A stretch of DNA of 58,250 nucleotides, counting the filler, from Dugesia japonica (Eukaryota): assembly GCA_001938525.1 (NCBI GenBank). It is 5 parts of 5 records of this genome, joined end to end, with 100 filler letters (N's around TTAATTAATTAA, not from the genome) between each part and the next. Parts side by side here need not be neighbours in the genome. Positions count along the whole stretch, not along the records: positions 11,452 to 20,977 come from MQRL01641085.1; 4 more parts are not named here. One strand, given 5' to 3'. Of this stretch, positions 638-55,470 are shown one piece after another. The notes below the pieces were generated by a model. The model was not told the origin of the DNA and searched no databases. It saw only the letters and a list, made by a program, of their open reading frames with translations. Numbering within the stretch: the first letter of the stretch is position 1; each line of letters begins with the position of its first letter. A program made the position numbers and the translations under genes.

Positions 638-912
638 TAATGGTTTTCAAGCTGTTCGCCGAGGAGCCGTGGCTGTGTTAAAAGGGCGCCGCGAGATTTT
701 TCCAATAATAGCAAATCGAAAAGACGAATAAAAATCCATTTGTTATTGTTGTGACATCAAACTATAAACTACATAATTTTTTAATAATATAGCAGTAATA
801 ATAATTAACCCATTAAATAAAAACGCAAAAGACAAAAACTTTGAATTAGGGCGCCGTAAAAAATTTCGATATAATAGAGGCACCACAAACCAAAAGAGTT
901 TGGGAACTACTG
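638..912. mobile_element. Degenerate hAT (Charlie-like) MITE
   Basis: Right end TTTGGGAACTACTG (reverse complement CAGTAGTTCCCAAA), left end TAATGGTTTTCAA, internal GGGCGCCG subterminal motifs. Confidence 0.5.
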
Positions 913-941
913 TTTTACATGATTAAAATTATTAAATTTAC

Positions 942-3900: not shown

Positions 3901-4838
3901 AATTTGAAAAATTTAAATAAAATAATGAGAATTAAGCTTTCTTTGCTGGATTTTTAGAATAATTAAAAAGATAAACAGATAAACAAATAAATAATAACCA
4001 TTACAAACAATCACAATAATAAACAGACAATAATTATGTCAAAAAATTACTTCCTTATCAGTACTTATGAATTCGGATCACAAAAGTTATTAGCAGTCGA
4101 AAAAAATAATAATTCTACATAAATCAATAATCAATAAAGTTAAAGTCTAAATATGACATAATAATTTTTTTTGCCATTATAATATTTAAAATTTTTACAT
4201 TAATTTTAATTCAAAAAATATTGATAAATCTATTTGAAATAAATAGAGCTATTGAATATAAAAATTTTAAATATATAGAATTTGATTTTAAATAAATTCA
4301 ACACAATTTTTGTAAGTTAGATATTAGTTTCCGATTTTCAACCATATTTAATCAAAATTTCTTTGGAGTGGAAAATGAAGAAAAACGTTTCATCACTTTT
4401 TCGATCAAAATTTACTCTGACACCAAACAAGTCTTCAATAAATCGATAGACGTATTTCTAAAGGATTTTATGAAAATATCTCAAGTGAGGAAATAATCAA
4501 AAGGTAATAAAGTCATAAGTAATTTGGCTTAAATATGACCTCATCGTTCTAGATAAGTTATAATATTTAAAGATTCTGCATTACAATGCACTTACTTAAA
4601 CTTCACTAACAAAATTCAATTATTCGATTGAAGTCACATACCTTCAGAGAGTTGATTCATGTAATAATGTAACATCTTCAATGGACTAGTTTGAAAATAC
4701 AATGGATTTCCATATTCCAGTATCAACTGATTGTTTTGAGTCCACCAGATCAATCTTCATAAACGTTTTTAAATTTATATTCAAATATATTTACGATGGA
4801 TCTCTTTTTAATTAATTTACAAATTCTATTTAGGGTTG

Positions 4839-4904
<66 letters not shown>

Positions 4905-4995
4905 NNNNNNNNNNNNNNNNNNNNNNNNNNNNNNNNNNNNNNNNNNNNNNNNNNNNNNNNNNNNNNNNNNNNNNNNNNNNNNNNNNNNNNNNNNN

Positions 4996-5062
<67 letters not shown>

Positions 5063-8000
5063 ATGAAGTAAAAATCTATTATTATATTTAAAAGCTTGAT
5101 ATAACTTTTTGGATAACATGTATATTAATTCGTCAACTATTCTCAAATACGTTGAGTAGGTTTAGTTAAATAGAATGAGCTAGATAAACCATTTGTTTAT
5201 AAATAATATTCTACTGTTATGCTTTAACATACTAAAATGTTATTCGCATCGTTGAATGCTAATGTTGATCTTGTTAAAGTTAAAATGAAATAATTATATT
5301 TCTGACAAATAAGAAATATTTGTCTGTAGCTAAATTAATGGATTTAATTTTCATCAGCATTAACAATAGAAAAGAAAGATGGATTATGACGATATTTGAA
5401 TCAGTTGGCAAAATACCGATAGAAAAATTTCAAATAAATTCCTGTAATTTTAAATACCAATTAAAACTAGCTGTCGAAATTTCACAATATTAGATCATCT
5501 ATATTTATTTATAAAATCTATTTAATTACGACAAATTAAAATAAGAAAATCTATATTGAAAGATAATCTCAATTTACCTTTTACCATTTAGACTTCCACT
5601 ACTATTTTGACTGGATTTTTGAAAAGGTAATTCCAGAGGTTTATGAAATTCTTGAGGTGGTAATCTGGGGAAAAAGGGTGCCATAGGATCTTCATTATCT
5701 ACATCATAATTTAAATAAAGTTGAGTAAATCTTTTGTCTCCTGGTTGCTCATCATACTCATCACTGTCATATACTGAAGAAGCCACATCTCCGACATATC
5801 TGAAAAAATATCATTAACCATTATTTTGTGTTACTAAGAATTAAAATTACCCGCTCAATGCATCACTATCGTCACCATAATTATATCGTCCGATATCGCT
5901 ACTTCTAGATGCCATTCCGGCATGGATGTGATTTCCACAATCTTGAAGTGAATTTCTTCCACTGACGTTGTCATAATCTGATCTTTCCGGACTGCTATTT
6001 GTGTATCTTCCATGTTTTTTTGCAAACCTCGAAGTTACACTTGGTCTTACTATTTCTCTTTCCAATCGTAACCCCATATGAGAATCACCAAAATCAGGCA
6101 TTCTAACAGGAGCAATATCTGGTAATCTTGTTAATTTATTTTGTTCTTGTCCAGATCTTGAAGGAGTTTTACTAGAAATAGAGCTTAGATCTTCTCCACG
6201 ACTTGAATTTGCCAATGAATATATTTCTTCGTTTTTCAATTTATTGATATTTGATGAATCGCCCCAGGGATGAGATACAAATACCTATAATACGTGTTTA
6301 AATTAGATAATCGTGCAATGAAAATTAAACTCTATTATTGATACAGTCTTGAGAGTAAGGATCATCGAAGATTTTATCTTGTTTGTAGGGATGATTTCCA
6401 TAGAAATCTGGATTAAGTATATTATTACCGGGAAACTTATAATACGAATTTAAACGATCTTCATTAGCCATTGAACCGATTGCTGGATTAGATGACTTCA
6501 AATCACAGTCGGTTTCAGTTTCTAAATCAGAAACCAATGGATTTTCGCTGAGATCAGATATCAAATCGCTGTGAAACCGAATACAATCTACATCGGAATC
6601 ATCTTCGTCTCCGTGGATATTACTACTCAACAAATCATTAGAGTCCGACCATTTCGAACACCAATCAGATTTGTTTCTATGTTTATCTTTGTGATTTTCA
6701 TTTGACTTGTATCTACCAGCATAGCCAGGATAATCACTATACATGTCTTCGTCATCATAACTCGTCCAACCAAGGTCAGTCACTAAACTGATACAAGAAG
6801 ACCCATTATCAAGCCCTTTCGAAGCAGTATCCCGACTAGATATTCCACAGTGCATAGCAAGAGGAACATGGTCCGTCTTAAAAATTTCATCCGTCAAACT
6901 TATCTAAGAAACCAATATTTCATAAACAGAATAAAATAATCATAATAATCACAACTTGGATCATTATTCAATTTAATTTTTAAAAAATTTGTTAAATGAA
7001 ATTAATTAATTTTTGAACGATTAATTCGTTTTTACTTACAGTTTAATTAATTATAAATTTTTTTCAATTAATTTTTTTAAATACAAACTATTTATTTATC
7101 TTTTCGATTTAAATAAATTCTTGTGTATAAACTTAGTGGTATTGATTTTATTATTCAAACGTCAACGAGTTTTCTGCTACCAACTATTTTCGTTACAAAT
7201 GAGGTTAAATTGAATATATATCAAAAAACGAAAAATTACTAATTTTTAATATTCCTTTCAGATTCCATCGTAGTTTTTTTTTTGTAATTTCGATAATTCA
7301 GTTAATATTTCAAATTTCACAGCTAGAATAACAACTTAATTGAAATAATTGTAACAGGGACTTTGTGAACATCACTGGCGAGAATTATTATTTTACAAAT
7401 CGAGAAATATAACGAGAAAAGACATTTTATTAATATGGCAATTAAAAATATTTCAATAGTAAANTTTAAATTTAGCCATTGATTTTNAAANTTTTTTTTT
7501 AATATTAGTATTTTTTAGAACAAATATAAACAATTAATAATTATACTTAATTATTTGTTTACAAAAAAACATTCACGTGTATTACGAAGCTTTGTTCTAT
7601 TGATAAAAATGCTATTAATTTGAAAAATTCTTTAAACATCATTTCAACCAATGAAAATCTCAATAAGTATATAAATATATCAAATCGAAATCTACTGTAA
7701 TTATTTTCAAAACTAAACATTCAATCCATTTAACCAGAGTTACTGCAAAGTTATTATTAATATGTAATGTTTTGATATGTAAATTAATGCAAATAAGTAT
7801 CACGTATTATTAAATATTTAAAACATTTCAATATAAGAAAATTATTATTAGTGTTTACAACGAGCAAAACAATCATTATTTTCAACAATATAAGTATTTA
7901 ATTGGATAATCGATTTCTAAAATTATCTCAATGAGCATGAGTCATAGATTGCCAACTAATACTGTCTGCGTACATCAAAAGTCCACGTGGAGCAATTCGC

Positions 8001-9355
8001 CTTAAAAGTAAAATGAAAAATTAAGCTTTTCATTTCAGCCAATCCAAAAAGAGTAAACTATGAATAGATGTTCATTTAAAACTAAAATAAATAAATTGAG
8101 TGCTTTATTAAAATTTGCCGTTTTATTTTTTTCAAATAGAGGAAAAAATAAAATTTGTTAAAAAATAATTAAATTACATTGCTGATAAACTTCAAAGAAC
8201 CAAATTGAAATCTCCATTTAATTTTCAAAAATTTTAGAAAAAATTTCATGAATAATAATTTGGAATTCTCTTAATAGTTATTTGAAAATAATCGTAATAT
8301 TAATCCTTTGTTTGAAATGGATTGAGACCTATTTAAAAAAAATAACAAGATAAGCTTATATGACAAACTGATTGCCTTTAATTTTTTAAAATACTATTTT
8401 GACTTCAGNATGAGATTAATAATACAAATAAATTTTATTCAGTGATTTTGATTCAAGTTATTTGCATTGGAATCCAATATATAAATGTACATGAGCATCA
8501 TTGTACTTTTCGATAAAATCAATAAACTTCTTAAAACATTTTTTTGCAGAATAAAATCAGTCAATTTTGAAAATGAAAGAGTCATCTGATTCATTGTTAT
8601 TATGATTATTATTATTATTATTATTGAGCTCCCAAAGAATAAAAAACAAGCTTTATGTCATGAAATAAATCTTTTAGTAGGATTATTATACAATATTGAA
8701 TTTNTTCATTAACATCTTATGAAACTCTTACTTTGTTATCACTGGAAAAGTTTCCTTGACAATTTTCCATTATTTTTGTGCAGTTGTTATTGGATTCTTT
8801 CTTTCCTGGTATTTTCAATAATCATATTAATGTGAAGTAATAATCTAGAATTTACCACTCTCGTCAGATGAAGTAGCTCCACCAGATCTACGCGCTGCTA
8901 TAGAACTACTGTCTCGAGAATTAGAGGAATTTCTATTTCTTTTAGATAAATGATCGCTATCATCTCCATTAATACCACCATTAGGACTTGTGGGTCGTCG
9001 ATAGTCAGGAAAATCAAATGATGCTCCACCAATTCTAAATTACTTTGAAATTAGAGATATTTTAGAACTAAATAATAAATATGCATTCAGACAATCTTTA
9101 TTATTAAATTAGATTGAGAAATCTCCCTAACGTTTTTTACTATAAAACCCTTGAACCTTGGTTCGCTAGACGTCAGAAATTATCGACATTAGCTGGGTTT
9201 ATTACTTTATCAGCAGGTTTTAGTGAAAATTGTTATTTGATCTAAAAAAACTGAGATTTCGTTAACATTTCGTTACAGTTTTAATGGATTATATTCCCTA
9301 TAATATAAATTATAATTTCATCAACTTATATTTTATAATTTTATTATTATTATTA

Positions 9356-9390
<35 letters not shown>

Positions 9391-9813
9391 TTTGTTATTA
9401 TTACTATAATTATTATAATTTACTAAAAAATTACAATCTGCATTTTTGATGAAAAAACCTGTCGATGTTATTAGACACATTTTTAGATAAAATACTTTAA
9501 TAAAAACTAACATATTTGAGCCAAATGAATTAGAACTATTCGTATTTCCACGCGAATTTATTCGTTCCAATCTATGTTCAGTGTGATTCTCATTAAGTGA
9601 GCAACCAAATTCATTATCTTTTTGTTTAACATTAATTAGTCTGGATCTACGAATTTCTTCCATGGGATCCAATAAGTTAGCTTGACTCTCGGCCATCGAC
9701 TCATATCTATAAATATTATAATATTAATATTAATATTAATATTAATANNNNNNNNNNNNNNNNNNNNNNNNNNNNNNNNNNNNNNNNNNNNNNNNNNNNN
9801 NNNNNNNNNNNNN

Positions 9814-9871
<58 letters not shown>

Positions 9872-11351
9872 TGTGTGCATCACATACTCATTGTCAGTAT
9901 ATATTGGATTATGATGGCTCATGATATCTGTTTGGTCCACATCAAATATTCTATCATCAGACGTGGTCATTATGTCAACACTGGCGATATCCTCTTCTGC
10001 ATTATGATATGATTCATCTTCAATTAAATCTGTTTCTGGTACGGTTTTGTATGACTCTGGAATTAAACTTAATCTTTCGTTAGGAGGCATTGAATAATTT
10101 GCCGATTTGGTCCTTGGATTTGTTGAGCATGCTTTCTCAAGCTCTAAAAAGCTGTCCATTGAAGAAGAAGGAGTGATACATTTTGAAGATTTTGTGTTTC
10201 GTTCCTTAGGTGGGCTTATGGCAGACTGAGTCATTTGATTTATGTCCTTTATTTATGAGAGATTAAAAACAAAATTTCAAAATATTTATTCATAACTTTT
10301 CTTGAAAATTTTTCTCGTGGATTTTGATTGTCTATTAAACATTGATTATATTGATTATTTTGAGGAAGAATTAAAGGTGATGAATTTTGAACTAAATTTA
10401 TCTAAATAAAAGTAATATTGAAAAACGATATGACTAATATAAAACAGACAAATTAATGGCATAAATTGAATGGACTGCAGTTAAATTTTTGTCACGATTC
10501 CATGTCGTTAAAATATAACAGAATATGATGAAGTAAATACACGGCTATTAAAATCATATGACAACTGTTTAATAATAATCTACACAAACGTTCAATATTA
10601 TATTAGAAAAAATGAGTTAATGCAGCTGTTTTCGAAAGAAATTATAAAAAGACTGTGACATAATTTCTTAACCAATGTTGCCGTGAAATTACAGAATGCA
10701 ATATAACCAAATTGTAAATTAAAAATGCTTATTGAAACAAAAAAACAAATAAGATAAAAACAGCCGAATNNNNNNNNNNNNNNNNNNNNNNNNNNNNNNN
10801 NNNNTCGGCAAAATACCAATATATAATAAATAGTAACTGCTGGTTTATGTCGACAGTATTTATTTGTAATATTATTATTTTACATTTGCATTTACATTGT
10901 CTGAATAAATCCGTCGATGAGGAGGAGGAGATGGTGGTATCACAGAATCCGGCAGCTCAGTGGCTAAATTTCGATAATGGTGAATTTTTGGTCGAGTTTC
11001 TAGAATTGATTTCCGACTGATATGTTCTTGTGGCGATTGCATGATATTGACATTATGGACTGGAACAGCGGGTGATTTATGCGGGAGAACTTGTGGAATT
11101 GTTGGATTGACTGACGATGAACCGATGAGAGTTGGATTAGTCAATGGATTCATTGCTGGAATAATCGACGAAATATTCGATGGCAATGGAGAATTACTGC
11201 TAGTATTTGAAGATAGATTAGCTAATGATGTTATTGGAGTTACAGAGAATAGGACATTGGATTTATTAAAATTTTGAACATTTGGCGAAATTGCGGCAGG
11301 TATTCCACCGTTTCTGGGCATTACCAATGGATTATTTGACATGAGACTTGA
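942..11351 (-). CDS. Large multi-exon host gene, Ser/Asn/Asp-rich and mostly low-complexity, product unidentified (partial; both ends not seen)
   Basis: Hand-built exons with AG/GT boundaries and matching phases: 10884-11351 (cut by gap), 10297-10401, 9888-10246, 9512-9706, 8856-9034, 8732-8805, 6331-6903, 5851-6284, 5578-5799, 4642-4754, 4596-4605 (micro-exon), 4416-4457, 3646-3832, possibly 2454-2493, then 1134-1321 and 942-1085. Many introns are 46-52 nt. The link from 3646 to 1321 is less certain. Matches ORF-track entries 10875, 9716, 9310, 6325, 5847, 5574, 3607 and 1096. Confidence 0.8.
2895..3442. mobile_element. Non-autonomous DNA transposon with TIRs and TA flanks
   Basis: GGCTATATCGAAAAA at 2895 and TTTTTCGATATAGCC ending 3442; TA on both sides. 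Confidence 0.6.
4841..5060. repeat. (ATT)n microsatellite spanning an N gap
   Basis: Direct reading. Similar (AAT)n tracts at 9342-9400, 9814-9868, 21078-21143, 22243-22375, 24144-24214; (ATTCTT)n at 20910-20977. Confidence 0.95.
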
Positions 11352-11451
11352 NNNNNNNNNNNNNNNNNNNNNNNNNNNNNNNNNNNNNNNNNNNNTTAAT
11401 TAATTAANNNNNNNNNNNNNNNNNNNNNNNNNNNNNNNNNNNNNNNNNNNN
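11352..11451. other. Artificial assembly spacer 44N-TTAATTAATTAA-44N (also 20978-21077, 30718-30817, 48289-48388)
   Basis: Four identical 100-nt constructs containing a 12-mer with stops in all six frames. Confidence 0.95.
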
Positions 11452-11740
11452 TACGATAGTTGGCCTTACTACGACACATTTACCCCCGTATCCGCAGCTC
11501 TCGTCATTCATTCAAAATAATTTGTGGAACGAGCGGAATGCCCTTAATTATCGAAATGACGAAAATAGATCGAGAGATAATATATAATATTGATTTGTGA
11601 AATTTCCTTTACCTGATTTTATTGATTTTAAATTCATGTTGTTGTTCAATTAATTTATTATAATAATTCTTGGTGTCTTTAATAAAATCTTGTACCTAAG
11701 TAATGAATAAAAATTAATCATACTTTATTTTTTCGCATAG

Positions 11741-12305
11741 TGCATTCATCACTAAATCGTCCACCCGCTCCAACTAAGAAGATTCGGGAGGATAGTGAGG
11801 ACATAGAGATGTCCTGGAACTTATATCGTTTAGCCAAACGGCTTTGGGAGTCGACGTGGCAACGTCAGCCGCCAAAGTTAAAAGATACAAAAACAAATGC
11901 GCTAGCATTCGCCTGGAAATGAAACTCGTCCAAGAACAAGAACGAGTCTGGAANNNNNNNNNNNNNNNNNNNNNNNNNNNNNNNNNNNNNNNNNNNNNNN
12001 NNNAGATGTCCTGGAATTTATATCGCCTATCTAAAAGACGTTGGGAGGCCGATGTAGCGACCGCCGAGGCGAAGGTGAAAAGGTACAAAAATAAATGTAC
12101 CCGGGTTCGGGAGGAATTACGACTGGCTCAGGAGCAGGAACGAGTCTGGAAAGCTCAAGTCGAGTCATTCGCAGAGATTATCCGGTCCAGCCATGACCGA
12201 GAGAATAAACTGGTTAAGGATATTCTTTTATTAAAAGATAAATCGTATCTCGAACCCCTTATGATTGATAAGGGCACACAAACAAAAAACGTTTCACGTC
12301 CATGA
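11741..12305 (+). pseudogene. Retroelement-associated accessory ORF1 (copy A): coiled-coil protein ending IDKGTQT
   Basis: Acceptor tttttcgcatag|TG; reads HSSLNRPPAPTKKIREDSEDIEMSWNLYRL...KVKRYKNKC...QEQERVWKAQVESFAEIIRSSHDRENKLVKDILLLKDKSYLEPLMIDKGTQTKN. One frameshift and a diverged duplicated segment across the 11954-12003 gap. Homologous to 55181-55470 (-). Confidence 0.6.
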
Positions 12306-12438
12306 TCTGGTCTCTGTGTAAATATATAAATATCACTCTTTGCTACTTGATTGATTTGAGTTTTAAGTCTGTCGATAATTTTATAAGTGTTGAAAATTCT
12401 ACTTTAACTTACACCCACTTAATGTTCTTCTATTTCAG

Positions 12439-12821
12439 TGCCGAGAATTCAGTTCCCCACTAGTTTAAGGCGTTGTCATCGTCTTTTACGCCACCTCCTC
12501 GTCGAACGACATTTGAAGAGAAGAGCAGACAAAGCCTTGCTAAAACATCTCGATCAACGCGATCGATTAATCAAGAAGCTTGATCTTGTCGTAAAGAAGC
12601 AAACCGACCTAGCAAATCAAACGAAAGCGTTGAAGACGGAAAATAAACTCCTCCTCCAACGTAAAATAGAGTTCCTCAAGCAATACATCTCCGACTTGTC
12701 GCGTCAACTGGGCAATCCCAATATATCTCAGTGGGATGACGATGACGATGTCGCGGCCTTTAACCTGACCATCACCTCCCCTGACCAATGGCTAGATCCG
12801 GAGGCGCTAGATTTACTCTAA
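12439..12821 (+). CDS. Retroelement-associated accessory ORF2 (copy A): basic N-terminus, coiled coil, acidic QWDDDDD tail; open frame
   Basis: Acceptor tatttcag|TG; 127-aa open frame; AATAAA just after the stop (about 12836); homologous to 54719-55048 (-). Confidence 0.65.
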
Positions 12822-13143
12822 TTTTGTTAATGTCAAATAAATAGTTTAATNNNNNNNNNNNNNNNNNNNNNNNNNNNNNNNNNNNNNNNNNNNNNNNNNN
12901 NNNNNNNNNNNNNNNNNNNNNNNNNNNNNNNACCTCCCATTAAGAGCGAGGTCAACCGCAGTAAACTGAAAGCCTACCATAGGGACGGTAGGATTAAATT
13001 CTTGAAAGGGTTCCCTTGAAGACTGTTTTTCCCCAGTCACTTTTCCAAGCTCAGGTAGAACCCCAACATATTTAATGAGTCAAGATGGTATTGTAACTAG
13101 CTACCACGCCGAAATCACAGTTCTCACAAATAGTCAGCAGCGG

Positions 13144-13571
13144 ATGAAAATTGTAGAATCGTTGCCAAAGAACTTTCAAGAATCGATTTATCCAATAATA
13201 AAAAGTTTTTTGGTTATAAGAAAGAAGATGAGAAAGAGTGGCTACAATCAATTGAAGATTTTGTAACCATAAATTCTTTAAATTTATGTGCAGCATTATA
13301 TCTATTGCGGTACGGTGACGCGAAGGAATTATGGATAGCCTTTAAAGAAAATATGAAGATTCCGTCTGATGAAAATACAAGAAATTGGTACAGTTCAAAG
13401 TACATCAAGTCGAAAACATTTTTGCAAAAGATCGACGATATGAGCCAAGTTAACCAACGATCAAATGAAAGGTATGAAAATTTTGCTATTAGAGTGAGGA
13501 AGTTTGTAAGAGAAGTTTTGTCGGTGAAGCAAACAGAAGACATGATCCTGAAGAATATAATTTCAAAATAA
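13144..13571 (+). pseudogene. gag: Gypsy gag remnant
   Basis: F-x-G...D...W-L and L-x-G-x-A-x-x-W patterns plus an MHR-like Q...E...F..R; frameshifted near 13200. Confidence 0.6.
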
Positions 13572-13990
13572 ATATTCTCCGGGAAAGTAAAGGAGTCAAT
13601 CGTAATGATCCCCAGATATGTCCTTCGAAAAATGATATCAAGACAGGAGGCACGAGAAAAAGACCTGGTAACCTTACTCGTTCGCTCCACAACATCAGCA
13701 TTTAATTCGAACAATGCTCACAGAAAGGTTGTTGGCCAGAGTGGAAACGATTTTATCGCAAATTATTGCTTCGTTGGATGAAACTGATAATGTTCGAATA
13801 ACTGAAGTGTGATCTATTTACAATATAGTTTGAGTTTGATCATTTCCTGGTTTTTGATTTTCATTCATATGTGACAACAACAATATTAATAATTGATACG
13901 ATTAGAAAATTTTAAGATAAATAGATTGTCAATTTCAATTTTAATATCTGATGATAAATACGATAAACAAAATTACATCTCTTATTATAG

Positions 13991-14309
13991 TGTCGAATGC
14001 CAGAAAAATAACCACGGATACCTCCATAGTAGACTTCAGGAAAAAGTGGTACTCAATGCATAAGAAGATGCAAAGTGAGATTGTTGAATTGCAGCGGAAG
14101 AATGCACTCCTCAGAGAGAAAAATAACCATCTAAAAAAAGAGACCATGCTCTCTCACGGACGTGTCGTGAAATAGCCGACATCTACAAAGCATATGCGGA
14201 CAGAGTGGGTGTATTGATCTCAACTGTACGGACATTAACGAAAGTGTCGAAATCCGAGAAGAAAGTGGTGAAAGAGAAAATCAAGGAGATCATCGACCTG
14301 GATGAATGA
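13991..14309 (+). pseudogene. Accessory coiled-coil ORF (copy C) in the env position, remote homolog of ORF1
   Basis: Acceptor cttattatag|TG; SNARKITTDTSIVDFRKKWYSMHKKMQSEIVELQRKNALLREKNNHLKK (frameshift) EIADIYKAYADRVGVLISTVRTL...KEIIDLDE*. Confidence 0.5.
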
Positions 14310-14476
14310 CAGATTGTAAAGGAAACAAAAGTTTTCTTATGGAGAATTGTTTTAATTTATGATTACAATCATATATTAATAAACACGACATCAAAGTAGT
14401 CAGAGACAAATAAAATCGAAATTAAAATTACAAAAGGGAATACAGCATGGTCCCACTGAATTCGGTAATGGGGGAT

Positions 14477-14659
14477 TGTGATGCAGGAGAAAACATGAAA
14501 CACATTTCTGTGGTTATTAGGTATCATCCCTCAGACATCGGGTTAAATCAGAAAGACGAAAAAGCAACCAGGAGAGAAGTAATCAAAATAACATCAATAG
14601 CTTCGTAACCCAACCCGTAATAAAAAATTTGTATTATAAGTTTAAATTTTCCAAGCACA
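14477..14659 (+). repeat. Putative 3' LTR (TG...CA)
   Basis: Follows the PPT; TGTGAT/AGCACA imperfect terminal inverted repeat. The partner LTR is not seen and may lie in the 12851-12931 gap. Confidence 0.5.
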
Positions 14660-17463
14660 ATTTTAACTATTTATTTAAAACTTCATTTAAAATTATTGTT
14701 TTTTCAATTAAATTCAAGTTTTATATACTTTTTTCAGTTAATTATTTGAAAAATATTCAATTTATCATACTTAATTTATTCAATCAATTATATNNNNNNN
14801 NNNNNATAAATGTTTAGAAATTATTTCAATGAATCAATGCTTAATAAAACATTCACATTTGAATTTGAGTTAGATTTTTTTACGATAAAAATAGAACATG
14901 AATACATGAAATCTAATTTAATTTCAAAATTACAAGTAAAAATATAGAACAGGTTAAATAATTATATATTAATTAAACAGTACATTTACCACTAGTGAAA
15001 ATTAAAGACCATTGACGACTGAATACAAGTGAACAGTAAGCAGAGCACTGATAACTGAAGACCAGTGTAGAGTGGGAAAACCAATAAGTGAGAGAAAGAT
15101 CAATAAAGAGTAAATATTCCTCCTAATTAATCTAAAACCCATCCAAAAATACACCTGATTCGACCTCATGGAGTAAAAATAAACTTAAAAACTACCCAAA
15201 ATTAGACTGAATCGAGTAAATTATTAGACTATTTTAAATTCCTCGGGTAGGACTCTCAAATTAAGTATTTGTTTTTCTATATAACTTTTTATCTATAAAA
15301 TTTGATGATTTCAGGTTTACAAATTTGGAATCAATCTAAAATTTTCTGTTGAATAGACTGGCTTATAATTAAATTTGAGATACATTTCATTTTAATTAAT
15401 TATTGAGAATTAAAATTTGACTTTTTTCAAAGTAATTTGATTTTGCATGTTTCTACTGTATATATTCTAAATCAGTGAAATGTTCTTTATCGAAAAGTAC
15501 ACGGATCATTAAATTTGGATGAAAATTATTTCAATATGATTAAAGAAGAAAATATTTTAAAAATTGTCAAAAATTCTCGAGTTTATCCAATTTTCTTCAG
15601 CTCAGATATGATTTAGCAAGTTTTAACTTGGTCAATCATAATCAGCAAAAAAGTCTCTATCGAATAGAATGGTTTATAATTAAAGTTGAGAGCAAAATAT
15701 TTTTCGAAACAATTATTTTTGGCTAAAAATGATTCCGAAATCATTCTTAATTGGAATATCGACAAAATAATTTTCAAAAAAATTTCAAAATTTGGGATGT
15801 TTACCCGAATTTCAACAAAAATTTAAATTATCTTTTAAAAACTTGAAAATTTTAACAAATTCGACTTTCCCCATAAATTTCTATTAACAATTCAACCCAA
15901 ATTGACCATATCGAGGAAATTATAGCTCAAATTCACCTAAAACTAACCAAATTTGCTTAAAACCGACCGAAATTAACCAGATCTGACCTCACTGAATAAA
16001 TTATCAACCAATTTTACCTATAAAATTATCCAAAATGAATCAAATTTGACAAGTCTGAGGAAATTATCACCTAAAACGTATCCAAACTAGCAAAATTGAC
16101 TTGATTCGACCTCACCGAGTAAATTATCAACCAACATTTGCCTAAAACCAACCAAAATTCACCATATTCGACTTCACCGAGGAAAAATTCGACGACATCT
16201 GACAAAACCGAGAGAAAAAAATTCAAAATTTGGGCTGTTCACCCGGATTGCATAAAAAGTCCCTTTAAAATATTTTGAAAACTAAAAAAGGAAAAATTCT
16301 TTCGCTTAAAAAGCCTAAAATTTGAAAATAATTTTGCCAAATTTTCAAAATACGATTAAAAGTTATGTAATTGCACATAAATTTTGTTCGCCAACTAAAA
16401 ACATAGAAAAAATAGCCTCTCTTACCTAATATGATGTACTTTTTAAATTTCCAACTAAAAACACAGGGATTAAGTTTCATTACATCACTAATCCTGGGGG
16501 GTATTGAATATGTACATAAGCTGTGCGCTACTATCTATCTACTATAAATAGTTTGTGCAATCTATGAAGATATTAAAAAATTATGTAATGTTACGATCGG
16601 GGGTAAAAGACAATATTTTCGAAGCGATTAACAACTTGGAGGAATTTGTATTGAGTGAGCGAAGTATCAATACAAAACAGACAACACTTGATGCTTCAAT
16701 TAAAAAGATAATGATTAACTAATAAAGTTTATTGAACTTTACGATTTTAAATTAATAATTAAGCTTTTTGTGTAAAAACTAAGAATATATTATTTGATAT
16801 GTAAATTATTAATTTAGTGTAAACGTTTCTTGGGATATTTTTCTTTGTTTCTGCACCTCTAAGACCCACAGGACAAAAGAAGGAAATATAACTGACACCA
16901 TCTCGTTTATTTGAATTACACATCTCATATTTTTTTAATTGTCCAGGTATTGCATAACTATTTATCTTGAAGATTTATTGGTAATTACAGCGAATCATTC
17001 CTTGTCTAATAGGTGTGGAAATAGCGAAAAAGTACTTGTTTAAAATTATTCTCATTAATAAGACATGACATTAATATAATTTATTTATATAAATTTCTCG
17101 ATTATAATTATATTTTCAAATTACAATAAATTTAGATAATCGAGAATATACTGTATAAATAATAATAAAATAATCAATTAAAAATAAGATTGAAAATTAA
17201 AAAATATTTAATTTCAAAATAATCGGCATATAAAATGATTAAAAATAAATTAAAAATATGGTCAATACATAATAGTTATAAGAGATAACAAGTTAATAAC
17301 GATTGTCGCTGTATATAACTATCATGTATATAACTATACACATAATGAAGATGATAATTAGAATTGGAAATTGAATTGATCAAGGTAATTTTGAATCTGC
17401 ATGTATTTGAGCTCCGCTTAATTTATCGATAAGATTGTTTAATTGTGGATTGTTTGTGTAAAT

Positions 17464-19200: not shown

Positions 19201-19640
19201 CTAGAAATTGGCTTCACTCTGCTCGATGTCAAACAATTTTGTTGCCGTTCAGAATTAACTATATGAACAAAAATACTTTACTTTAAAGTTTAAATTGTAG
19301 TCGATTTTAAAATGCTCAGTGAAGGTAATTTCCAACTATTCTTACTTTAATTGAATATTTTCAACTTAAACAACTATTTTGTTTGTCATTTGATAAGATT
19401 CGTTTTGAAATGAAACAAAGTAAACATAAATTTTGGAAAATAAAACCAAACATATTAGGGTTTACTACAAAACTTCATGAAAGATAAGATTTTTTGTGAA
19501 AACTCTTGAATCTTCATTTTCTAATAGATTACCTTGCTCTGATGTTTTGTTTATTTGCCATTTCACATTTTGCTTGTTTCTTGATCTCGAAAATGCGACA
19601 CATAATTGACCATAAGAAAAAACTGATATATTGAAATATA
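19201..19640 (-). mobile_element. Helitron 3' end (PIF1-type helicase C-terminus and CTAG terminus)
   Basis: VFSYGQLCVAFSRSR...TKNLIFHEVL* matches the FSHGQLYVAxSR...TxNxVxxEVL RepHel tail; minus-strand CTAG|T at 19201-19204. Confidence 0.75.
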
Positions 19641-21077
19641 TAAATAAGGCGCTGATTTTTTTATGATGATATGCGACGAGCGTAGACGGCATTGAAAAAT
19701 GTGGCAAAATTGAGTAACGTAATTTAATCGAAGTTTGAAAAGTATTAATGTATAGCCCTGTAACGTAACCTAAATTTATATTAAAAATATTTTATTTCCA
19801 AACTAAATACTTTTTTAAACATTGAATTNGGTGTAAACGTACAAGTGTACTCTGAACAGGATGAAGACACATTGCCAAAATTAATAGCTCTACATATGGA
19901 CCACTGGTCTCTTTGAGGTGTCCGCGTGAACACATTTTATGAGACAAGCACACATTCAAAAAATTAAAAGTAATATATTTTTTTCGAAATTGCATTTTTT
20001 ACTCAAATTTTTAAACCTCTTTTTAGAAACATATATGTTAATCAATTTGGTGTAACATTACTCTTCACACAATGACAAACTTCTGATCTGAACTATGACC
20101 TTCTCAGAATGTTTTGAAGTTTTCATTTATGTATAAAATAATCGGGCCTAATAATCGATAATGAGACGTGTATGCTTATTGATAAGTATCTAATGTTGAT
20201 TTTAGACGAATTCTTTGAGTGCACAAAGTTTACTTAATTTGAATAATTTTGCACACAAGAAATTTTTGGCGCACACAAACGGAAGAAAATGAGAGGAAAC
20301 ATTGATATAGGAATCCACACACACACACATATATATATTTTATTTTGAAATAAAACTAAAATTTTCAAGACGGAGATTACAAATGAAAATATCATCATAT
20401 TTGTTTAGCTCTTCAGTTAAATAAATAAAATAATTAAAAGATAATCTGAAAAATTATAAATTAAACATTAAAATGAAAAATAAATTAATTATTAAGTTTA
20501 GCCTCCAGTTTGCGTAAATAACACATCTGAATTTGACAACTGGAAATAAAATTTCTATAAACGTTAAACATTTTCAAAAAAAACATAAATCAAAATCATT
20601 TATATCGTATCGAATTGCCGGGTAGATGAAACACAACTTTTTGAATTTTATCTTTCTTTTGGAATTAATTTCATTCGTATTAGAAATTCTTGACAAATTT
20701 CAAATATTAAATAAAATGTTTGTCAATCATTTTTATTTAATGAAAATTCTTTTAAATTTAGAGTGNCACTATACAGATTTATACATAATTTTAAAAAGTA
20801 AAATATTATTAAAATATTCATAGATTTTTGTTGTTTAATTTATTTTTATTATTGAATATGTTATTCATAAAAGTTAATTTTATAAATTTATAATTTCATT
20901 CTCATTCCTATTCTTATTCTTATTCTTATTCTTATTCTTATTCTTATTCTTATTCTTATTCTTATTCTTATTCTTATNNNNNNNNNNNNNNNNNNNNNNN
21001 NNNNNNNNNNNNNNNNNNNNNTTAATTAATTAANNNNNNNNNNNNNNNNNNNNNNNNNNNNNNNNNNNNNNNNNNNN

Positions 21078-23785: not shown

Positions 23786-23970
23786 TATACCATTTTTACC
23801 TCTATTTCAACATTTTGCAATATAAATTCAATATTTTTTAATTCAATTTCAACATTTTATAATTCAATTTCAACATTTTATAATTGAAATTGAATTATAA
23901 AATATTGAAATTAAGTTACAAATGTTGAATTAATATTGCAAAATGTTGAAATAGAGGTAAAAATGGTATA
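23786..23970. mobile_element. Foldback/palindromic MITE with TA flanks
   Basis: About 36-bp perfect arms (ATACCATTTTTACCTCTATTTCAACATTTTGCAATA and its reverse complement) continuing imperfectly to the centre. Confidence 0.75.
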
Positions 23971-24160
23971 TAATTTATAATAAATATTAATATCTGTTCA
24001 CTTTTCTAAGTTTGTTTCAACTAATTCATAAGTGGTTTAAGGAAGGAGTAAATAAATAAATATTTTCTAGTTTTGACAATTTCTTTAATGTTTTCAGTTT
24101 CATTTCTGTGTTTAGTTTTGGTAATTAGATAATACTTTTATTAAATAATAATAATAATAA

Positions 24161-44560: not shown

Positions 44561-44639
44561 CTCGTTTTGTATTATCATTCGTTTGCTTTATGATATATTT
44601 ATCATTTAATTGTCATCTTTTTTGAATGAATATCAAATT

Positions 44640-49860: not shown

Positions 49861-50278
49861 ACATAATCATGAAGTAAACGTGATAGTATCATTACGCAAT
49901 CATGACACCATAAAAATATAGACTAATTTTCGACCAATCAAATTACAGTAATACTTCCACAATTACGTAATCACTTTAGTCCTTATTTATTTTTTTAGTT
50001 GGTTTTCTTTATTTTTAGGTTTATTCAATTTGATCCGAGCTATAAGAGAATGTAATAGAGCAAATCTTGATGAATCTTTGAATATAGTTCAGCAAAATAT
50101 TACCGAATCTTCATTTGGGTAATTTTTTTGTTTTATAAATAAAATTTATAAATTCTTTCTTTCAGAAAAAAATAATTATTTAAACTTGTTAGATAATTTA
50201 ACATTTTATTTTAATTTAAATAATTTTTAATAATTAAAAAAAAATTTAAATAATGTTGTAGTCAATAACTTTCCCATC

Positions 50279-53200
50279 TTAATTTCTCCAAGTTACCAGA
50301 TATGGACCTTCATATACAGGCTGTAGTGGTATTCTTAATTCGCGTTTGATCCATACAAATTTACATATATCAATTTCTTGTGGCATGAACGTTTTCGTGA
50401 TTCCATGTAATCTGAGACAGCTGTTTCGAAATTCTGTTGGAACCATTATTTGTCCGTCAGAGCATGATGGTACAATAATATCACCTGGTAAACGTATATT
50501 CGTCCCAAAAACTGTTTGGCATGGTGATAATTCTGAATCTTCACGCACCGCCTTACGGATTCCTAATATTGTTAATGGAAGATTTTCTAACCAACTACGT
50601 TCATCATTAGTTCCTTGAGTCCGCAGAGCATTCTTTAGAGACCTATGAAATCTTTCTATTTTTCCATTGCACTGTGGGTGATATGGTGTTGTATACCTAT
50701 GTTCAATTCCAAAATTATTGGAGAAATCGTTAAATTTTTCAGATATAAATTGTCTACCATTGTCGCTTATTATTATTTCTGTTACTCCGAAGCGAGATAT
50801 CCATTCTTTAGTTAAGGACTTTAGCACGGATTCGAATGTAATTTCATTCAGAGCCACTACCTTTGTCCATGAAGTATCACGATCAATCGTTGGTAAAATA
50901 AACCTTTTGGTTTTTAATGATTGGCAAGGGACCAACTAAACCTTGTGCAATACTTTGAATTTCCCTGGATTCGGAATAGATCCTAACGGTGCTTTTGTGT
51001 GCCTAGTAATTTTATTAGCTTGACATACCTGACAAAATCTGCACCATTTACAAATTTGGGATTTCATAGCTGGCCAAACATAACGACTTGTTAGTAATCT
51101 GATTGTCGCATTTGATCCTTGATGACACAGATTATGGAGTTTTTTGAATTCATTAAAGCGAAAACACTCCGGTTAAATGATTCTCGTGTTAGCCTTCGAA
51201 GTATCAATCAGAACACCTTCCTTAGATATTTTCAGTTTCAGAGAGTGACTTTTTATATCTTTGAGAAATTGGTCGTCTTTCTGGCTTTTTACAAGGTCTG
51301 AGAGTGAAATATGTTCAATTTCTTTTAATATTTCATCGCCTGTGTCTTTTCTAGACAGAAAGTCAGCTACTATATTGTCAGAACCTTTGATNTACTAAAT
51401 TTGCATATCAAACTCATTCAGATATTATGTTCATCTCTACTGTCTCGAAGATTGATTTTTCATCTGCATGATATAAAGTAATGGCTTATGATCTGTTCGG
51501 ACAATAAATTTTCTGCCAAGTAAGTAGTGATTAAAATACTTGATTGAGAGAACTAACGTCAGAAGTTCTCTATCAAATGTTGAATATCTTTGTTATGCAG
51601 GGTTTAACTTTCTTGACAAAAATGAAACAGGACATAAACTACCGTCATTGTTTTCGTGGTTTAAACTGCTACCAATTGCCGTACTAGATTCATCTGTACA
51701 CAGGTAGTCTGGTGTTGCCATATCAATAATCTCAGTAAGTTTCTTTATAGCAATTTTAAATGCTTCTTAGTGACTCGGTAACCATTGAATAGCTCGTTTT
51801 TTACTTGAGCCTGTGATGAGATCATGTAATGGAGACATTGTTTCTGATAAGTTCGGAATCATCCATTGATAAAAGGCTATTTTTCCAGTAAATCTTTTTA
51901 ACGCTTTGAATGTTTTTGGAACAGGCATACTGCTGATGGCTTCAATTTTAGATTGTATTGGCTTTATACCTTTTGTAGAGATTGTATAATCAAGAAATTC
52001 TACCTCGGATTTGTTGAACTGACATTTTTCTGTGTTAATCTGCAGCTTGTTCTTAAGTAAAACTTTCTTTATTAGCTCTAGATGATTCTGATGCTCGCCA
52101 TGAGTTATTTGAATGAATTAAAATGTCATCAATATATACTGAAGTAAATGCGCGACAGTCTTGCAAGCATTTGCCCATGCGTCGTTGGAATGTTTGTGAA
52201 GCATTTTTCAGTCCAAATGGCATACTTTTGTATTCATATAATCCAAATGGATTTATAATAGTAGTTTTATGTCGATCCTCCTTATTGATTGGGATTTTAT
52301 GATACGCTTTCTTAAGATCTAAAGTAGAAAAAACTGAACAACCTGTAACTTTGTCCAAAATGTTGCTCATTCTGGGTTATTGGTATCGGTCTGGTTTCAT
52401 AATTGCTTTAAGCATGCGATAGTCACCACATGAACGAAATGTTCCATCTTTCTTTTTGACAATTACAAGTGGTGAAGCCCATTCTCTGTTACTTGGTTGA
52501 ATAATATCGCCAGTAAGCATGTCATCAAACTCTTTTTTATTTGAGTGAGAAAAATTCCTCCTAATCTTCGAACTCTTTGTTTTACTGGTGCCCCGGAAGT
52601 TTCTATTCTTATGCAAGTTTGATTTTTAGTGCACATAATATTGTTATGTTTCCTAAGAATGCAATTGTTGTGACAATCTACTAATAATCTGAAATTGGAC
52701 AAGAAATTGGATCCTAAGATTGGTCGGCGTATATCAGCAACCGTAAATAGCCATGTGAATTTTCCTGGAATGCTTGGAATAAATAATGATAATTTTGTCT
52801 CACCAAAAACATCGATTTATCCATTGTTCGCCGTAATTAAAGAATGTCTGATTTTCATATTATCTGTCTGGAATAGCTGTATATGAACAATGCTAATATC
52901 AGCACCTGAGTTTACTAAAAATTCATACTTTAGCTTCTCTGACAAAACTGGAACTGTGAAGATTACGTTTATAGATTGCGACGACTTTGTTTTGATTTGG
53001 ATCTCAGTTGTCGGCTCTACTGAGATCTGTTGGTTTTTCCCGAATAATTTCTGGTGTACCAAGAGTATGGTTGTTGACATTTAACAGCATATTTTCCAAA
53101 TTTTTTATGATAAAAACAAAGTTCTCTGAAATTTTTATCATTATTTTGATTCCTTCTTGCTTTAATGGAATTGAGATCTTCTTGAGTTGAATTCTCTTCT

Positions 53201-53736
53201 TCATAGTTCTTGATAAGAGTTGAGAAAATGTGACTATTTAAAAATGACAGTCGACTAGCTTGGCTAATTCATCCAGAGTTTTAGTTTGGTATTGTACCAA
53301 ATGATGTCAAATATTGATTGACACTTACTGCATAAATCTGTATCTGAGAAAGTTTGACGTATCTGGATTTTCACCAGGCTGCATAATTTTGAAGCATTGT
53401 GTAAGCTCCAATAAAGTTTGAGATGGACGCTTATATAATTCCATTTTTGAATTTGTAAGCCGATCAATTGCCTGAGTCATTGGCATTGACGTTTTCGCTA
53501 ATATGGCTTGCTTTAGGTTTTCATAAGGATCATTGGAATGTGGATTCGAATCATAGGACACGATTTCCAAAATATCTAGAGGCAAATTGGTGAGCAGATG
53601 AAAATACTTTGTTATGGAGTTGCGAATGTTGGAAAGTACGAATGTTGTATCTATTTGTGTGAACCAATTGATCAGATTTGGGAAATAATTTGGTATTTTC
53701 ACCTGAACGTGATTTTTTTCTTTGTTTCTGACACCA
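50279..53736 (-). mobile_element. pol: Decayed Ty3/Gypsy element internal region (PBS-gag-PR-RT-RH-IN)
   Basis: gag VKIPNYFP..WFTQID...TKYFHLLTNLP...PYENLKQAIL; PR FLVNSGADISIV; RT ASPLVIVKKKDG..CGDYR and YIDDILI; IN IISDNGRQF, TTPYHPQCNGKIERFHRSLK, YEGPY. Confidence 0.93.
53726..53736 (-). promoter_or_regulatory. Primer-binding site (tRNA-Leu-like) directly after an LTR-type CA end at 53738
   Basis: Minus strand GACTACA-A-TGGTGTCAGAA, about 30 nt upstream of gag. Confidence 0.6.
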
Positions 53737-54718
53737 TTGTAGTCAATATCGAATGATATAATTTGAATGAGAAGAATTCAGGAAATTTGAAAAGTATCTA
53801 TTTCAATAAAATAAATGATATAAACAAAATTAATTAAATATTTAATATATTTAATTAATTATTTTCTGAATTTAATACTACAAATATATTATTAAAATTT
53901 TTTTTAATCTATGTTGGGCTTTAACAGCCTGAATAACAAAAGAAATAAATTGAATTAATCAAGAAAGGAATTAGAAATAATGGGCTTGTGAACAAAAAAA
54001 TAATAAAAAAGGAAACCGAAAAGAAATAGCAATCAAATAAATATTAACAAATTATCAATGAATTAATTAAAAATTATTAAATAAATCGTCAAATTAAAAC
54101 TAGAACGAGAAAATGAAAATGAAGAGGTGATAGAGATAAAAAGAATCAAATATATTCGTCGAAGCAATAATTAGTTCAAATAAAACAAAAGGCTCATAGA
54201 TAAAAGCTAATCGGTAATAATAACAAACAGAGTTTCCAGGAGTAGTTATTAGAATAAACGAGCAATTAAATAAATATTGTTTAAAGAAATAATGATTAAT
54301 TAACAAAAAGGGATCAAATGAAACCCTCCGAAATATGAACAATAAAAGAGACTAATGAACCGAAACATAAGATTAAAAAATAAGAAAATATTAGTGCTGA
54401 TAGAATTAAATAAATTAAAGAATATTCGATTATTGAAATAAAATGATAAAGGAGGAGAATAAATTGATAATTGAGATATGGCAGTGCTCAAGAAAGTAAC
54501 AATAATGAACGGTAAATATCATAAACATAAATGTGGTGCGCACAATAAAAAGAAAGTTCGAATAAATAATAATTAAATAATATTTGAATGAAATAAATGC
54601 CAGAAAATGATGAGAAATAATAAACGAAGTGAAAAAGATAATCTATTCCCGAGTAAGACAAACAATATAATCAATACAAGTAAGATTTATCTAAATACAC
54701 GCGAATACGGCTAAGTTA

Positions 54719-55048
54719 CTAATGGACGGGCGCGTTATCCGTAAATTCTAATGCGGCCTCGTCATCTTTATCGTTCCACTGCGCAAATGCGTTTAGGCTC
54801 TGTCTAGCCGCCAGGTCAGTGATGTACTGGGTTAGAAAGTTGACCGTATTGAACAATCTGTTGGCAGTGCGATTGACGATGTTCAGTTGCTTTTTGCTCA
54901 CAGGCTCAATTTTTCTGATGAGTCGATATTTCTGCATGATGTGGCGCGACAAGGTCTTCTTGCACCTTTTAGCTAATCTGCGTTGTTAAGAAACTACGGA
55001 TTAGCTTATGGCAGTGACGCAGATTCATTGGTAAACGAAATTTTGTCA
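54719..55048 (-). pseudogene. Accessory ORF2 (copy B), one frameshift
   Basis: Acceptor tatattcag|TG; TKFRLPMNLRHCHKLIRSFL (frameshift) KRCKKTLSRHIMQKYRLIRKIEPVSKKQLNIVNRT...VNFLTQYITDLAARQSLNAFAQWNDKDDEAALEFT aligns along its length with 12439-12821. Confidence 0.7.
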
Positions 55049-55180
55049 CTGAATATAAAGTTAAATAATAGACCAGGATAGTTAATTCATGAAAATGGTT
55101 ATGAAATAGTAAAATGTAGAGTGAGCTAAAGGAACGCAGATTGTATTTAACTATTAACAGGAGAATATGCAAAAATAAGT

Positions 55181-55470
55181 TCAATTTCGGATCTGGGTAG
55201 CTTTATCAACGAGAAGTGGTTGTACCGGCACCCGCTTTCGTAATACTAGTACGTCATTCACGAGTTGGTTTTCACGTTCATGCAAGGACCGGATTATTTT
55301 TGCCTAAGCTTTCTAAGCTTTCCTGAAAATGCAACGTTTTCATCTTTAACAGAATTGATTTTTCTCTTGTTGTCAGCTATTCAGATTTTCTTGTCCTGTT
55401 GTTTTAAGGTTATCTGGATCAAAGTTACTCACCTTTTACACTTTTCTGGTTAATTGACCTTTCTTTTTGT
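55181..55470 (-). pseudogene. Accessory ORF1 (copy B), with stops and a frameshift
   Basis: KVN*PEKCKR*...QQDKKI*IA ... AKIIRSLHERENQLVNDVLVLRKRVPVQPLLVDKATQIRN* versus copy A AEIIRSSHDRENKLVKDILLLKDKSYLEPLMIDKGTQTKN. Confidence 0.7.

What the first reader, a model, noticed from the sequence alone, without database searches (positions are those of the whole stretch)
11741..12821. Conserved two-gene accessory cassette (ORF1+ORF2) found twice, each upstream of a different Gypsy gag
Seen: 11741-12821 (+) and 54719-55470 (-) carry the same two ORFs in the same order, separated by a roughly 130-nt AT-rich spacer. Similarity is clear in protein and much weaker in DNA. ORF1: AEIIRSSHDRENKLVKDILLL...PLMIDKGTQ vs AKIIRSLHERENQLVNDVLVL...PLLVDKATQ. 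ORF2: PTSLRRCHRLLR...RLIKK...KKQ...FLKQYISDL...QWDDDDDVAA vs PMNLRHCHKLIR...RLIRK...KKQ...FLTQYITDL...QWNDKDDEAA. Both cassettes are co-oriented with and 5' of a gag, and the two gags are of different types. Neither ORF has a signal peptide or TM segment, and I recognise neither as gag, pol or env. Inference: a mobile accessory module kept under protein-level selection and carried by, or exchanged between, LTR-retrotransposon lineages. Linkage of copy A to the next gag crosses an N gap and is unproven.
Basis: partly seen in the sequence, partly recalled or inferred. Interest (0 to 1): 0.82.

Follow-up and report, generated by a model that had tools for sequence, protein, structure and literature searches.

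The report
Spliced orphan-gene array, not gag cassette
Two small unknown genes really do occur twice here and were kept by selection, but they belong to a longer run of short splice-dependent genes from an unidentified mobile element, and their position beside retrotransposon gag genes looks accidental.

Summary
The two-ORF similarity is real (21/40 and 41/100 identical residues, 0 of 2000 shuffles, synonymous sites saturated). The gag link does not hold. Copy B lies about 840 nt outside the 5' LTR/PBS of its Gypsy neighbour. Copy A's gag is a 560-nt fragment with a different GC3, sitting inside a longer ORF array.

ORF1, ORF2 (both copies) and a further ORF3 each open in phase 1 at a pyrimidine-rich AG|TG acceptor after a 132-178-nt AT-rich spacer, and ORF2A has no Met. 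They need a shared upstream leader, supplying either a short peptide or the A of the AUG. This is inferred; there are no transcript data.

The proteins are short helical orphans with no credible homologue in any search. ORF1 ends in an LC8-type DKxTQ motif. GC3 is 0.52, against 0.27 for host exons and 0.29 for Gypsy genes.

Best reading: the accessory region of an unidentified complex retroelement, expressed by subgenomic splicing (about 0.45). A viral or Polinton-like unit is the main rival. The carrier is unresolved.

The parts
11453..11587 (+). ORF0: possible C-terminal end of a further array ORF, cut by the linker gap
   Evidence: 44 open codons, GC 0.39, CpG o/e 1.9, then a 153-nt AT-rich spacer; no Pfam match; weakest member
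11741..11953 (+). ORF1 5' half (copy r1): starts at an AG|TG acceptor in phase 1; 23 codons precede the conserved Met; one frame break near 11851
12004..12305 (+). ORF1 (copy r2), 99 aa from ATG 12006: one long helix (residues 3-80) and a low-confidence tail holding DKGTQT
   Evidence: LC8 motif as given in the PMC3078936 listing
12306..12438 (+). 133-nt AT-rich spacer ending in a pyrimidine-rich AG acceptor
12439..12821 (+). ORF2A, 127 codons, no Met, opens in phase 1 at AG|TG; helix 8-91, acidic/aromatic C-terminus
12932..13074 (+). GC-richer (0.45) stretch after the 81-N gap; probably array sequence, alternatively gag A leader or an integrase end
   Evidence: no Pfam match in 3 of 3 frames; unresolved
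13075..13634 (+). gag A fragment (about residues 1-190 of a 420-470-aa Ty3/Gypsy Gag), broken; probably not native to the array
   Evidence: bracketed by an imperfect 11-12-nt repeat at 13074-13085 and 13631-13643; GC3 0.36
13635..13812 (+). ORFx: coding-like C-terminal piece following the gag fragment, then a 178-nt spacer
   Evidence: no Pfam match in the one frame scanned with stops as X nor in the overlapping frame (E 0.035 only)
13991..14309 (+). ORF3: opens in phase 1 at AG|TG; basic coiled-coil (bZIP_2 E 0.0023, below cut-off); one frame break near 14150
14467..14659 (+). Short G-run followed by a TGTG...AATAAA...CACA stretch (14477-14659): possible PPT and 3' LTR
   Evidence: sequence; post hoc and weak; no second copy in the window
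55181..55303 (-). ORF1B: C-terminal 40 codons only, ending DKATQI..stop
55049..55180 (-). 132-nt spacer ending in a pyrimidine-rich AG acceptor
54719..55048 (-). ORF2B, opens in phase 1 at AG|TG; one frame break near 54986
50257..53882 (-). Gypsy element B (neighbour, not carrier): LTR candidate 53882-53738, PBS-like site 53736, DUF7041 gag, pol, integrase, 11-nt LTR-end remnant 50267-50257

Best explanation
The ORFs are part of an array of at least three, probably five, short accessory genes of a multi-copy mobile element, most likely a large complex LTR retroelement not otherwise present in this window. Each gene is a 3'-terminal exon: AT-rich spacer, acceptor AG|TG, phase-1 reading frame, own stop. 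One upstream leader is spliced to any of them and supplies the start, either as a short peptide ending in phase 1 or as the A of an AUG completed by the TG, much as env and accessory genes are made from subgenomic RNAs. The products are non-enzymatic helical proteins. ORF1 is probably a coiled-coil dimer with an LC8 site, ORF2 a long helix with an acidic tail, ORF3 a basic zipper, so they are likely host-interaction or nuclear regulatory adaptors. SHOWN: homology, purifying selection, acceptor-like sites and phase, composition, helicity, B lying outside its neighbour. INFERRED: splicing, the leader, the carrier class, all functions. The copies here are decayed fragments.
For: Only 9 of 210 strong acceptor-like sites in the window are followed by TG. 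Among 23 AG|TG sites, the three longest phase-1 frames are ORF2A (127 codons), ORF3 (61) and ORF1 (60). ORF2 conservation begins at the acceptor, and ORF2A has no Met. No phase-1 GT donor is shared by the two ORF1 ends, so the spacer is not a simple ORF1-ORF2 intron. Spacers are 133, 132, 153 and 178 nt. pS is saturated and pN is 0.12-0.39. GC3 is 233/452 = 0.52, vs host 0.27 and Gypsy B/C 0.29. For an LTR carrier: a G-run plus a TGTG...CACA LTR-like stretch follows ORF3, and a gag piece sits inside the array between microhomologies, as template switching could leave. Precedent: insect ERV env is spliced to a short peptide or to an AU dinucleotide of the start codon (10.1101/2023.08.03.551782, passage).
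Against: No transcript data, and no leader or donor was identified. Acceptor thresholds were set after seeing the sites, and ORF3's site scores 0.50, below the 0.55 'strong' cut; only three sites are independent. ORF1 has a conserved internal Met, so it may not need the leader. No LTR pair, pol or PBS can be tied to the array. The PPT candidate is only a 5-G run. GC3 differs from every Gypsy gene in the window, which fits a virus equally well. Many TQT peptides do not bind LC8 (PMC6607443, passages), and copy B reads TQI. Gaps at 11352, 11954 and 12851 make contig order uncertain.
Confidence: 0.45

Rival explanations
1. Endogenised fragment of a nuclear virus or Polinton/adintovirus-like element, whose small genes are expressed from one transcription unit with a common leader and alternative acceptors.
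For: GC3 0.52 is unlike both host and all Gypsy genes here. The genes are tightly packed and co-oriented with short AT-rich spacers. A coiled coil plus an LC8 motif is familiar from viral proteins (recalled).
Against: No viral hallmark gene nearby. Foldseek against BFVD gave 0 of 14 and 0 of 8 matches at E<=0.001. A LTR-like end follows ORF3. The viral contig collection could not be scanned.
Confidence: 0.22
2. The array belongs to the gag A family itself (ORF0-2 upstream of gag, ORFx and ORF3 downstream of a deleted pol, or tandem elements). This is the part of the first reader's idea that survives, for copy A only.
For: All parts are co-oriented. ORFx and ORF3 are on the same contig as gag A. 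A LTR-like end follows ORF3. Accessory ORFs upstream of gag are known: Burro (PMC6431247 section 7) and insect sORF2, found upstream of gag or downstream of pol (PMC11952523 passages).
Against: GC3 0.36 vs 0.52 (p 0.001) and a repeat bracketing the gag piece. Close gag A relatives are in the protein collection while ORF1 and ORF2 are not; this is weak, since ATG-less ORFs may not be called. Copy B has no gag A beside it.
Confidence: 0.15
3. Part of a non-LTR or DNA element with spliced or multiple coiled-coil ORFs (Terminon/Penelope-like, CACTA, Helitron).
For: Terminons carry several co-oriented coiled-coil ORFs (PMC6431247 passages; PMC5408684 section 3.4). Copy B is 5'-truncated.
Against: No hammerhead or other Rfam match. 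No RT, transposase or helicase is linked to the array.
Confidence: 0.1
4. Host multigene cluster or operon resolved by spliced-leader trans-splicing.
For: Spacers of 130-180 nt ending in an acceptor resemble intercistronic regions (recalled).
Against: GC3 is twice that of the host exons. Copies are decayed and dispersed among TEs. A leader ending in AUG joined at AG would read frame 0, which hits a stop within 1-10 codons in 4 of 4 cases (read).
Confidence: 0.05
5. One reading: a two-gene module placed 5' of gag and exchanged between two Gypsy lineages.
For: Both copies are co-oriented with and upstream of a gag. Sharing of accessory ORFs between retroelement groups has precedent in rotifers (PMC5408684).
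Against: Cassette B is about 840 nt outside element B's LTR candidate and about 980 nt upstream of its PBS-like site. No cassette copy lies at B's 3' end, as a long LTR would require. With three gags in 58 kb, adjacency by chance is easy.
Confidence: 0.05

Closest known systems
Spliced env of Drosophila errantiviruses (springer, ZAM, idefix subclades; 10.1101/2023.08.03.551782, passages seen)
   Same: A downstream ORF without its own start, completed by splicing to a short leader peptide or to part of the AUG.
   Different: There it is one ORF, a membrane fusion glycoprotein, and the leader gives AU. Here at least three soluble helical ORFs share one junction type (|TG), and the splicing is inferred only.
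Burro giant Gypsy elements of planarians (PMC6431247, section 7 read; original description not seen)
   Same: Complex LTR elements with accessory ORFs. Plausibly a similar host: AT-rich, introns of about 50 nt; the host taxon is my inference and was not tested.
   Different: No Burro domain (MATH, BIR, BCL2, ankyrin, env) was found here.
Rotifer LTR ORF3s and Terminon ORFs (PMC5408684, abstract and first part of Results read)
   Same: Coiled-coil accessory ORFs attached to retroelements and shared between groups.
   Different: The shared types shown there are enzymes (GDSL, DEDDy). Sharing between lineages is not shown here.
sORF2/FAST-like proteins of MDG1-group retrotransposons (PMC11952523, passages seen)
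   Same: Small accessory ORFs upstream of gag or downstream of pol.
   Different: sORF2/FAST-like proteins have a membrane domain and N-myristoylation; none is evident in ORF1-3 (by inspection).

Membership tests
Internal accessory ORF of Gypsy element B | Lies between the 5' LTR/PBS and the 3' LTR, or inside both LTRs | tested here: not met
   PBS-like site at 53736 and LTR candidate 53882-53738; cassette at 54719-55303; no copy at the 3' end, although that LTR is almost wholly lost
Accessory ORF of the gag A element | Same LTR-bounded unit as gag A | tested here: inconclusive
   81-N gap; no PBS or 5' LTR seen; GC3 and the bracketing repeat argue against
Ty3/Gypsy element as carrier | LTR pair, PBS and PPT around the array | tested here: inconclusive
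   One LTR-like stretch (14477-14659) after a G-run; no partner
Ty3/Gypsy element as carrier | Linked pol (PR-RT-RH-IN) | tested here: not met
   No pol sequence in 11452-14793; the contigs are short, so this does not exclude it
env-type spliced ORF3 | Signal peptide, furin site, fusion peptide, TM anchor | tested here: not met
   No env Pfam, PDB or BFVD match; models are single soluble helices
env-type spliced ORF3 | Expression from a spliced subgenomic RNA | not testable with these tools
   Acceptor-like sites and a shared phase are shown; no RNA data
Burro | Giant polyprotein with MATH/BIR/BCL2/env domains; sequence similarity to Burro accessory ORFs | not testable with these tools
   No Burro sequence on hand; none of those domains among 26 ORFs scanned
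Terminon/Penelope-like | Athena/PLE RT and hammerhead motifs | tested here: not met
   0 Rfam matches at gathering score; no such RT near the array
Polinton/adintovirus or other EVE | pPolB, capsid, ATPase, terminal inverted repeats | tested here: inconclusive
   None seen in the fragments; viral contig collection closed
LC8/DYNLL partner | [D/S]-K-X-[T/V/I]-Q-[T/V]-[D/E] motif in a disordered region | tested here: inconclusive
   A matches 5 of 6 defined positions, B 4 of 6; tail pLDDT <50; binding not tested

The most novel reading that the evidence does not exclude
An undescribed mobile element or virus of an invertebrate whose three to five accessory genes all lack a start of their own and receive their AUG from one splice event (leader ...A joined to TG...). 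One donor would then act as a master switch over a battery of orphan regulators, including an LC8-recruiting coiled coil, and the family is old enough for synonymous saturation.
Probability: 0.22. Interest if true: 0.78.

Novelty: new variant of a known kind. Interest (0 to 1): 0.48.

Why it matters
Accessory genes of invertebrate retroelements and endogenous viruses are a little-charted source of host-interaction proteins. ORFs that begin only after splicing are invisible to ATG-based gene callers, which may be why these have no database relatives. If the shared AG|TG junction is confirmed, it gives a simple signature for finding such arrays genome-wide and a testable expression mechanism. 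The claim as first stated (exchange between Gypsy lineages) would have mattered more, but the evidence here is against it.

Tried and rejected
Homologue searches.
- ORF2: 0 of 12 candidates. ORF1: 0 of 1 candidate.
- phmmer of ORF2 over 1.84 billion representatives gave 2 hits. Both were rejected: a DUF7507 repeat protein matching only by summed weak repeats, and an oyster coiled-coil repeat protein.
- Atlas: ORF2 best score 0.76; ORF1 0.92 to unnamed clusters, with recognition below the informative level.
- Pfam gave only generic coiled-coil families below cut-off. PHROGs: 0 families for ORF1 and ORF2.
- PDB sequences: best E 0.39 and 0.48. Foldseek on BFVD: nothing at E<=0.001.
- GTDB genomes: 1 of 151 stretches, a coiled coil inside a 1125-aa bacterial protein, rejected. 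Rfam: 0.
- ORF3, ORFx and ORF0 were not searched in the large protein collections (caps spent). Longer or fused forms of ORF1 were not searched at all.

Ideas dropped.
- The spacer as an ordinary ORF1-ORF2 intron: no shared phase-1 donor.
- ORF1, ORF2 and ORF3 as paralogues: z between -0.7 and 0.3.
- 55304-55470 as the ORF1B N-terminus: no similarity.
- 12932-13016 as an integrase end, and 53900-54650 as a pol remnant: my impressions from recalled motifs, not backed by Pfam or tblastx.
- AATAAA signals after each ORF: uninformative in such AT-rich DNA.
- A true dN/dS: not computable, because pS is saturated.

No complex prediction was run. Nine paper searches found no description of such an array, but the library lacks most subscription papers and Repbase-type records.

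Full report
Setting. The window is 26% GC and has 25 N-runs. Four pairs of these form N44-TTAATTAATTAA-N44 linkers, and four are exactly 50 N; one 50-N gap is flanked by an identical 58-nt overlap, so such gaps need not be real distances. A Ser/Pro-rich host gene with introns of about 50 nt runs on the minus strand. Three decayed Gypsy pieces are present: gag A (13075-13634), element C (about 24900-29500) and element B (53882-50257). An invertebrate, perhaps a flatworm, is my inference; it was not tested.

Observation. tblastn within the window finds ORF1 residues 56-95 at 55303-55184 (21/40 identical, E 3e-11) and ORF2 at 55049-54728 in two frames (9/21; and 37.6% over 93 columns, E 2e-15). 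0 of 2000 shuffles reached any score. Codon comparison gives pS 0.76 / pN 0.29 for ORF1 (40 codons) and 0.80 / 0.39 for ORF2 (100 of 127 codons, the gapped middle left out). Identity by codon position is 0.56/0.71/0.35, and bootstrap pN/pS is 0.46 (0.36-0.57). Synonymous sites are saturated, so no dN/dS can be given, and protein-guided alignment biases pN downward. The spacers match in length (133, 132 nt) but not in sequence. Copy A also holds a second ORF1 5' half before the 50-N gap, 36/47 identical to the one after it, with pS 0.83 and pN 0.12. It is either an old internal repeat or a third family member joined by the scaffolder; the window cannot tell. B's homology ends at 55303.

The gag link fails for B. 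On the minus strand, CA is followed one base later by TGGTGTCAGAA at 53736, a PBS-like site (its match to a tRNA end is recalled, not tested). 145 nt upstream lies TGTAGT, the inverse of the ACTACA end. The last 11 nt of this LTR candidate recur at 50267-50257 just after integrase (0.0014 expected by chance in 1890 nt), and the flanks read ATATT and ACATT, a 4-of-5 target-site match. Cassette B ends about 840 nt beyond that LTR. Between them lies a plus-strand purine-rich stretch (purines 0.61-0.72) with no Pfam match. The LTR start is less certain than the PBS, but a long LTR holding the cassette should leave a copy at the 3' end; none is seen, though most of that LTR is lost.

The gag link is doubtful for A. 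Gag A has three relatives at 66-78% identity among 129 candidates, all three with CCHC knuckles (weak Pfam matches). The window copy stops at about residue 190 of 420-470. It is flanked by GC-richer, coding-like DNA on both sides (0.45 and 0.40 vs 0.34). It is bracketed by AATGA-G-TCAAGA and AATGA-TA-TCAAGA, a pattern met in 13 of up to 3000 random window pairs (noticed post hoc). GC3 is 60/165 for gag A against 233/452 for the array (p 0.001), 197/682 for Gypsy B and C genes, and 164/613 for host exons. The simplest reading is a gag fragment lodged in the array, but membership of the gag A family is not excluded. Element C has its own PBS-like and PPT-like sites and no cassette.

ORF2A has no Met. 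Its similarity to ORF2B starts exactly at a pyrimidine-rich AG followed by TG, in phase 1, in both copies. The same junction opens ORF1 (11741) and a further coiled-coil ORF3 (13991), unrelated in sequence. In the window, 9 of 210 strong acceptor-like sites are followed by TG. Of 23 AG|TG sites at a looser cut, the three longest phase-1 frames are these three (127, 61, 60 codons; next 39 and 36; ORF2B 26 because of its break). The cut-offs were chosen knowing the sites, and ORF3's site passes only the looser one. None of six putative host acceptors read by eye is followed by TG. ORF1 is conserved to within a few codons of its stop in both copies, and no phase-1 donor is shared, so ORF2's partner exon is distant. 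With the ORF0 and ORFx ends, the unit reads ORF0 - 153 nt - ORF1 - 133 nt - ORF2 - gap - (gag piece) - ORFx - 178 nt - ORF3, then a G-run and a 183-nt TGTG...AATAAA...CACA stretch that may be a PPT and LTR (weak).

The proteins. AlphaFold2 gives ORF1 one helix (residues 3-80, mean pLDDT 85.5, pTM 0.48) with a low-confidence tail, and ORF2 a helix at 8-91 (78.3, 0.38) with an uncertain acidic end. The alignments held only 4 and 3 rows. The ORF1 tail holds DKGTQT (A) and DKATQI (B), close to the LC8 motif given in the PMC3078936 abstract (search listing only). Many such peptides do not bind (PMC6607443, passages). ORF3 scores weakly to bZIP_2 (E 0.0023, below cut-off). No credible homologue was found for ORF1 or ORF2 by sequence, feature or fold search. 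ATG-less or spliced ORFs may simply be missing from those collections.

Mechanism. I favour subgenomic splicing of one leader to alternative terminal exons in a complex LTR retroelement (0.45). The leader would give either a short peptide (junction codon Val) or the A of AUG; M-P, M-T, M-S and M-H would be ordinary N-termini, but sequence alone cannot decide.

Comparison. Errantivirus env is spliced to a leader peptide or to an AU dinucleotide (10.1101/2023.08.03.551782, passages; its supplementary figures with the junctions could not be seen). Accessory ORFs are known in Burro (PMC6431247, passages and section 7), in rotifer retroelements (PMC5408684, abstract and part 1 of 2 of Results) and in MDG1-group elements (PMC11952523, passages). 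So the principle is known. A battery of soluble orphan ORFs with one shared junction was not found in nine searches. It works like spliced accessory genes; membership of any named family is not shown.

Verdict. The feature is real, the stated linkage is mostly wrong, and the underlying object is unexplained and testable. Novelty: new variant of a known kind. Interest 0.48; 0.78 if the splice-made AUG array is confirmed (probability about 0.22).

Noticed in passing
window 56880-57309: MITE-like insertion with terminal inverted repeats CAGAGGCGTAGCTAG and an exact 8-bp flanking duplication ATAAGCAC (hAT-like, label recalled); read
   Followed up: no
window about 24900-29500 (+): Decayed Gypsy element C with a PBS-like site at 24924, a G-rich tract near 28990 and 73%-similar segments at both ends; no cassette
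   Followed up: partly
window 845-11400 and 45893-46372 (-): Exons of a Ser/Asp/Pro-rich host gene or genes with introns of about 50 nt; no Pfam match for 6 pieces scanned
   Followed up: partly
window 53900-54650 (+): Purine-skewed, decayed coding-like stretch between cassette B and element B; unidentified
   Followed up: partly
window 32157-32677 (+): ORF with a 50-residue unit repeated across an N gap and a hydrophobic C-terminus; no meaningful Pfam match
   Followed up: partly
window 19465-19791 (-), 42004-42427 (+), 44259-44609 (+): Transposon remnants resembling a Helitron helicase end, a Merlin/IS1595 transposase (both from recalled motifs; Pfam found nothing) and a Tc1-type DDE (DDE_3, E 0.08)
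   Followed up: no
window 11352, 20978, 30718, 48289: Artificial N44-TTAATTAATTAA-N44 scaffold linkers; order across them is not evidence of linkage
   Followed up: yes
window 23785-23971, 35073-35200, 38664-38810, 46935-47073: Palindromic MITE-like elements, and a roughly 100-nt repeat family with about eight copies
   Followed up: no
proteins P0003-P0013: Unnamed Gag family with two CCHC knuckles, 66-78% identical to gag A for the three representatives; the contigs (up to 28 kb) could not be fetched and would show whether this family carries accessory ORFs
   Followed up: partly
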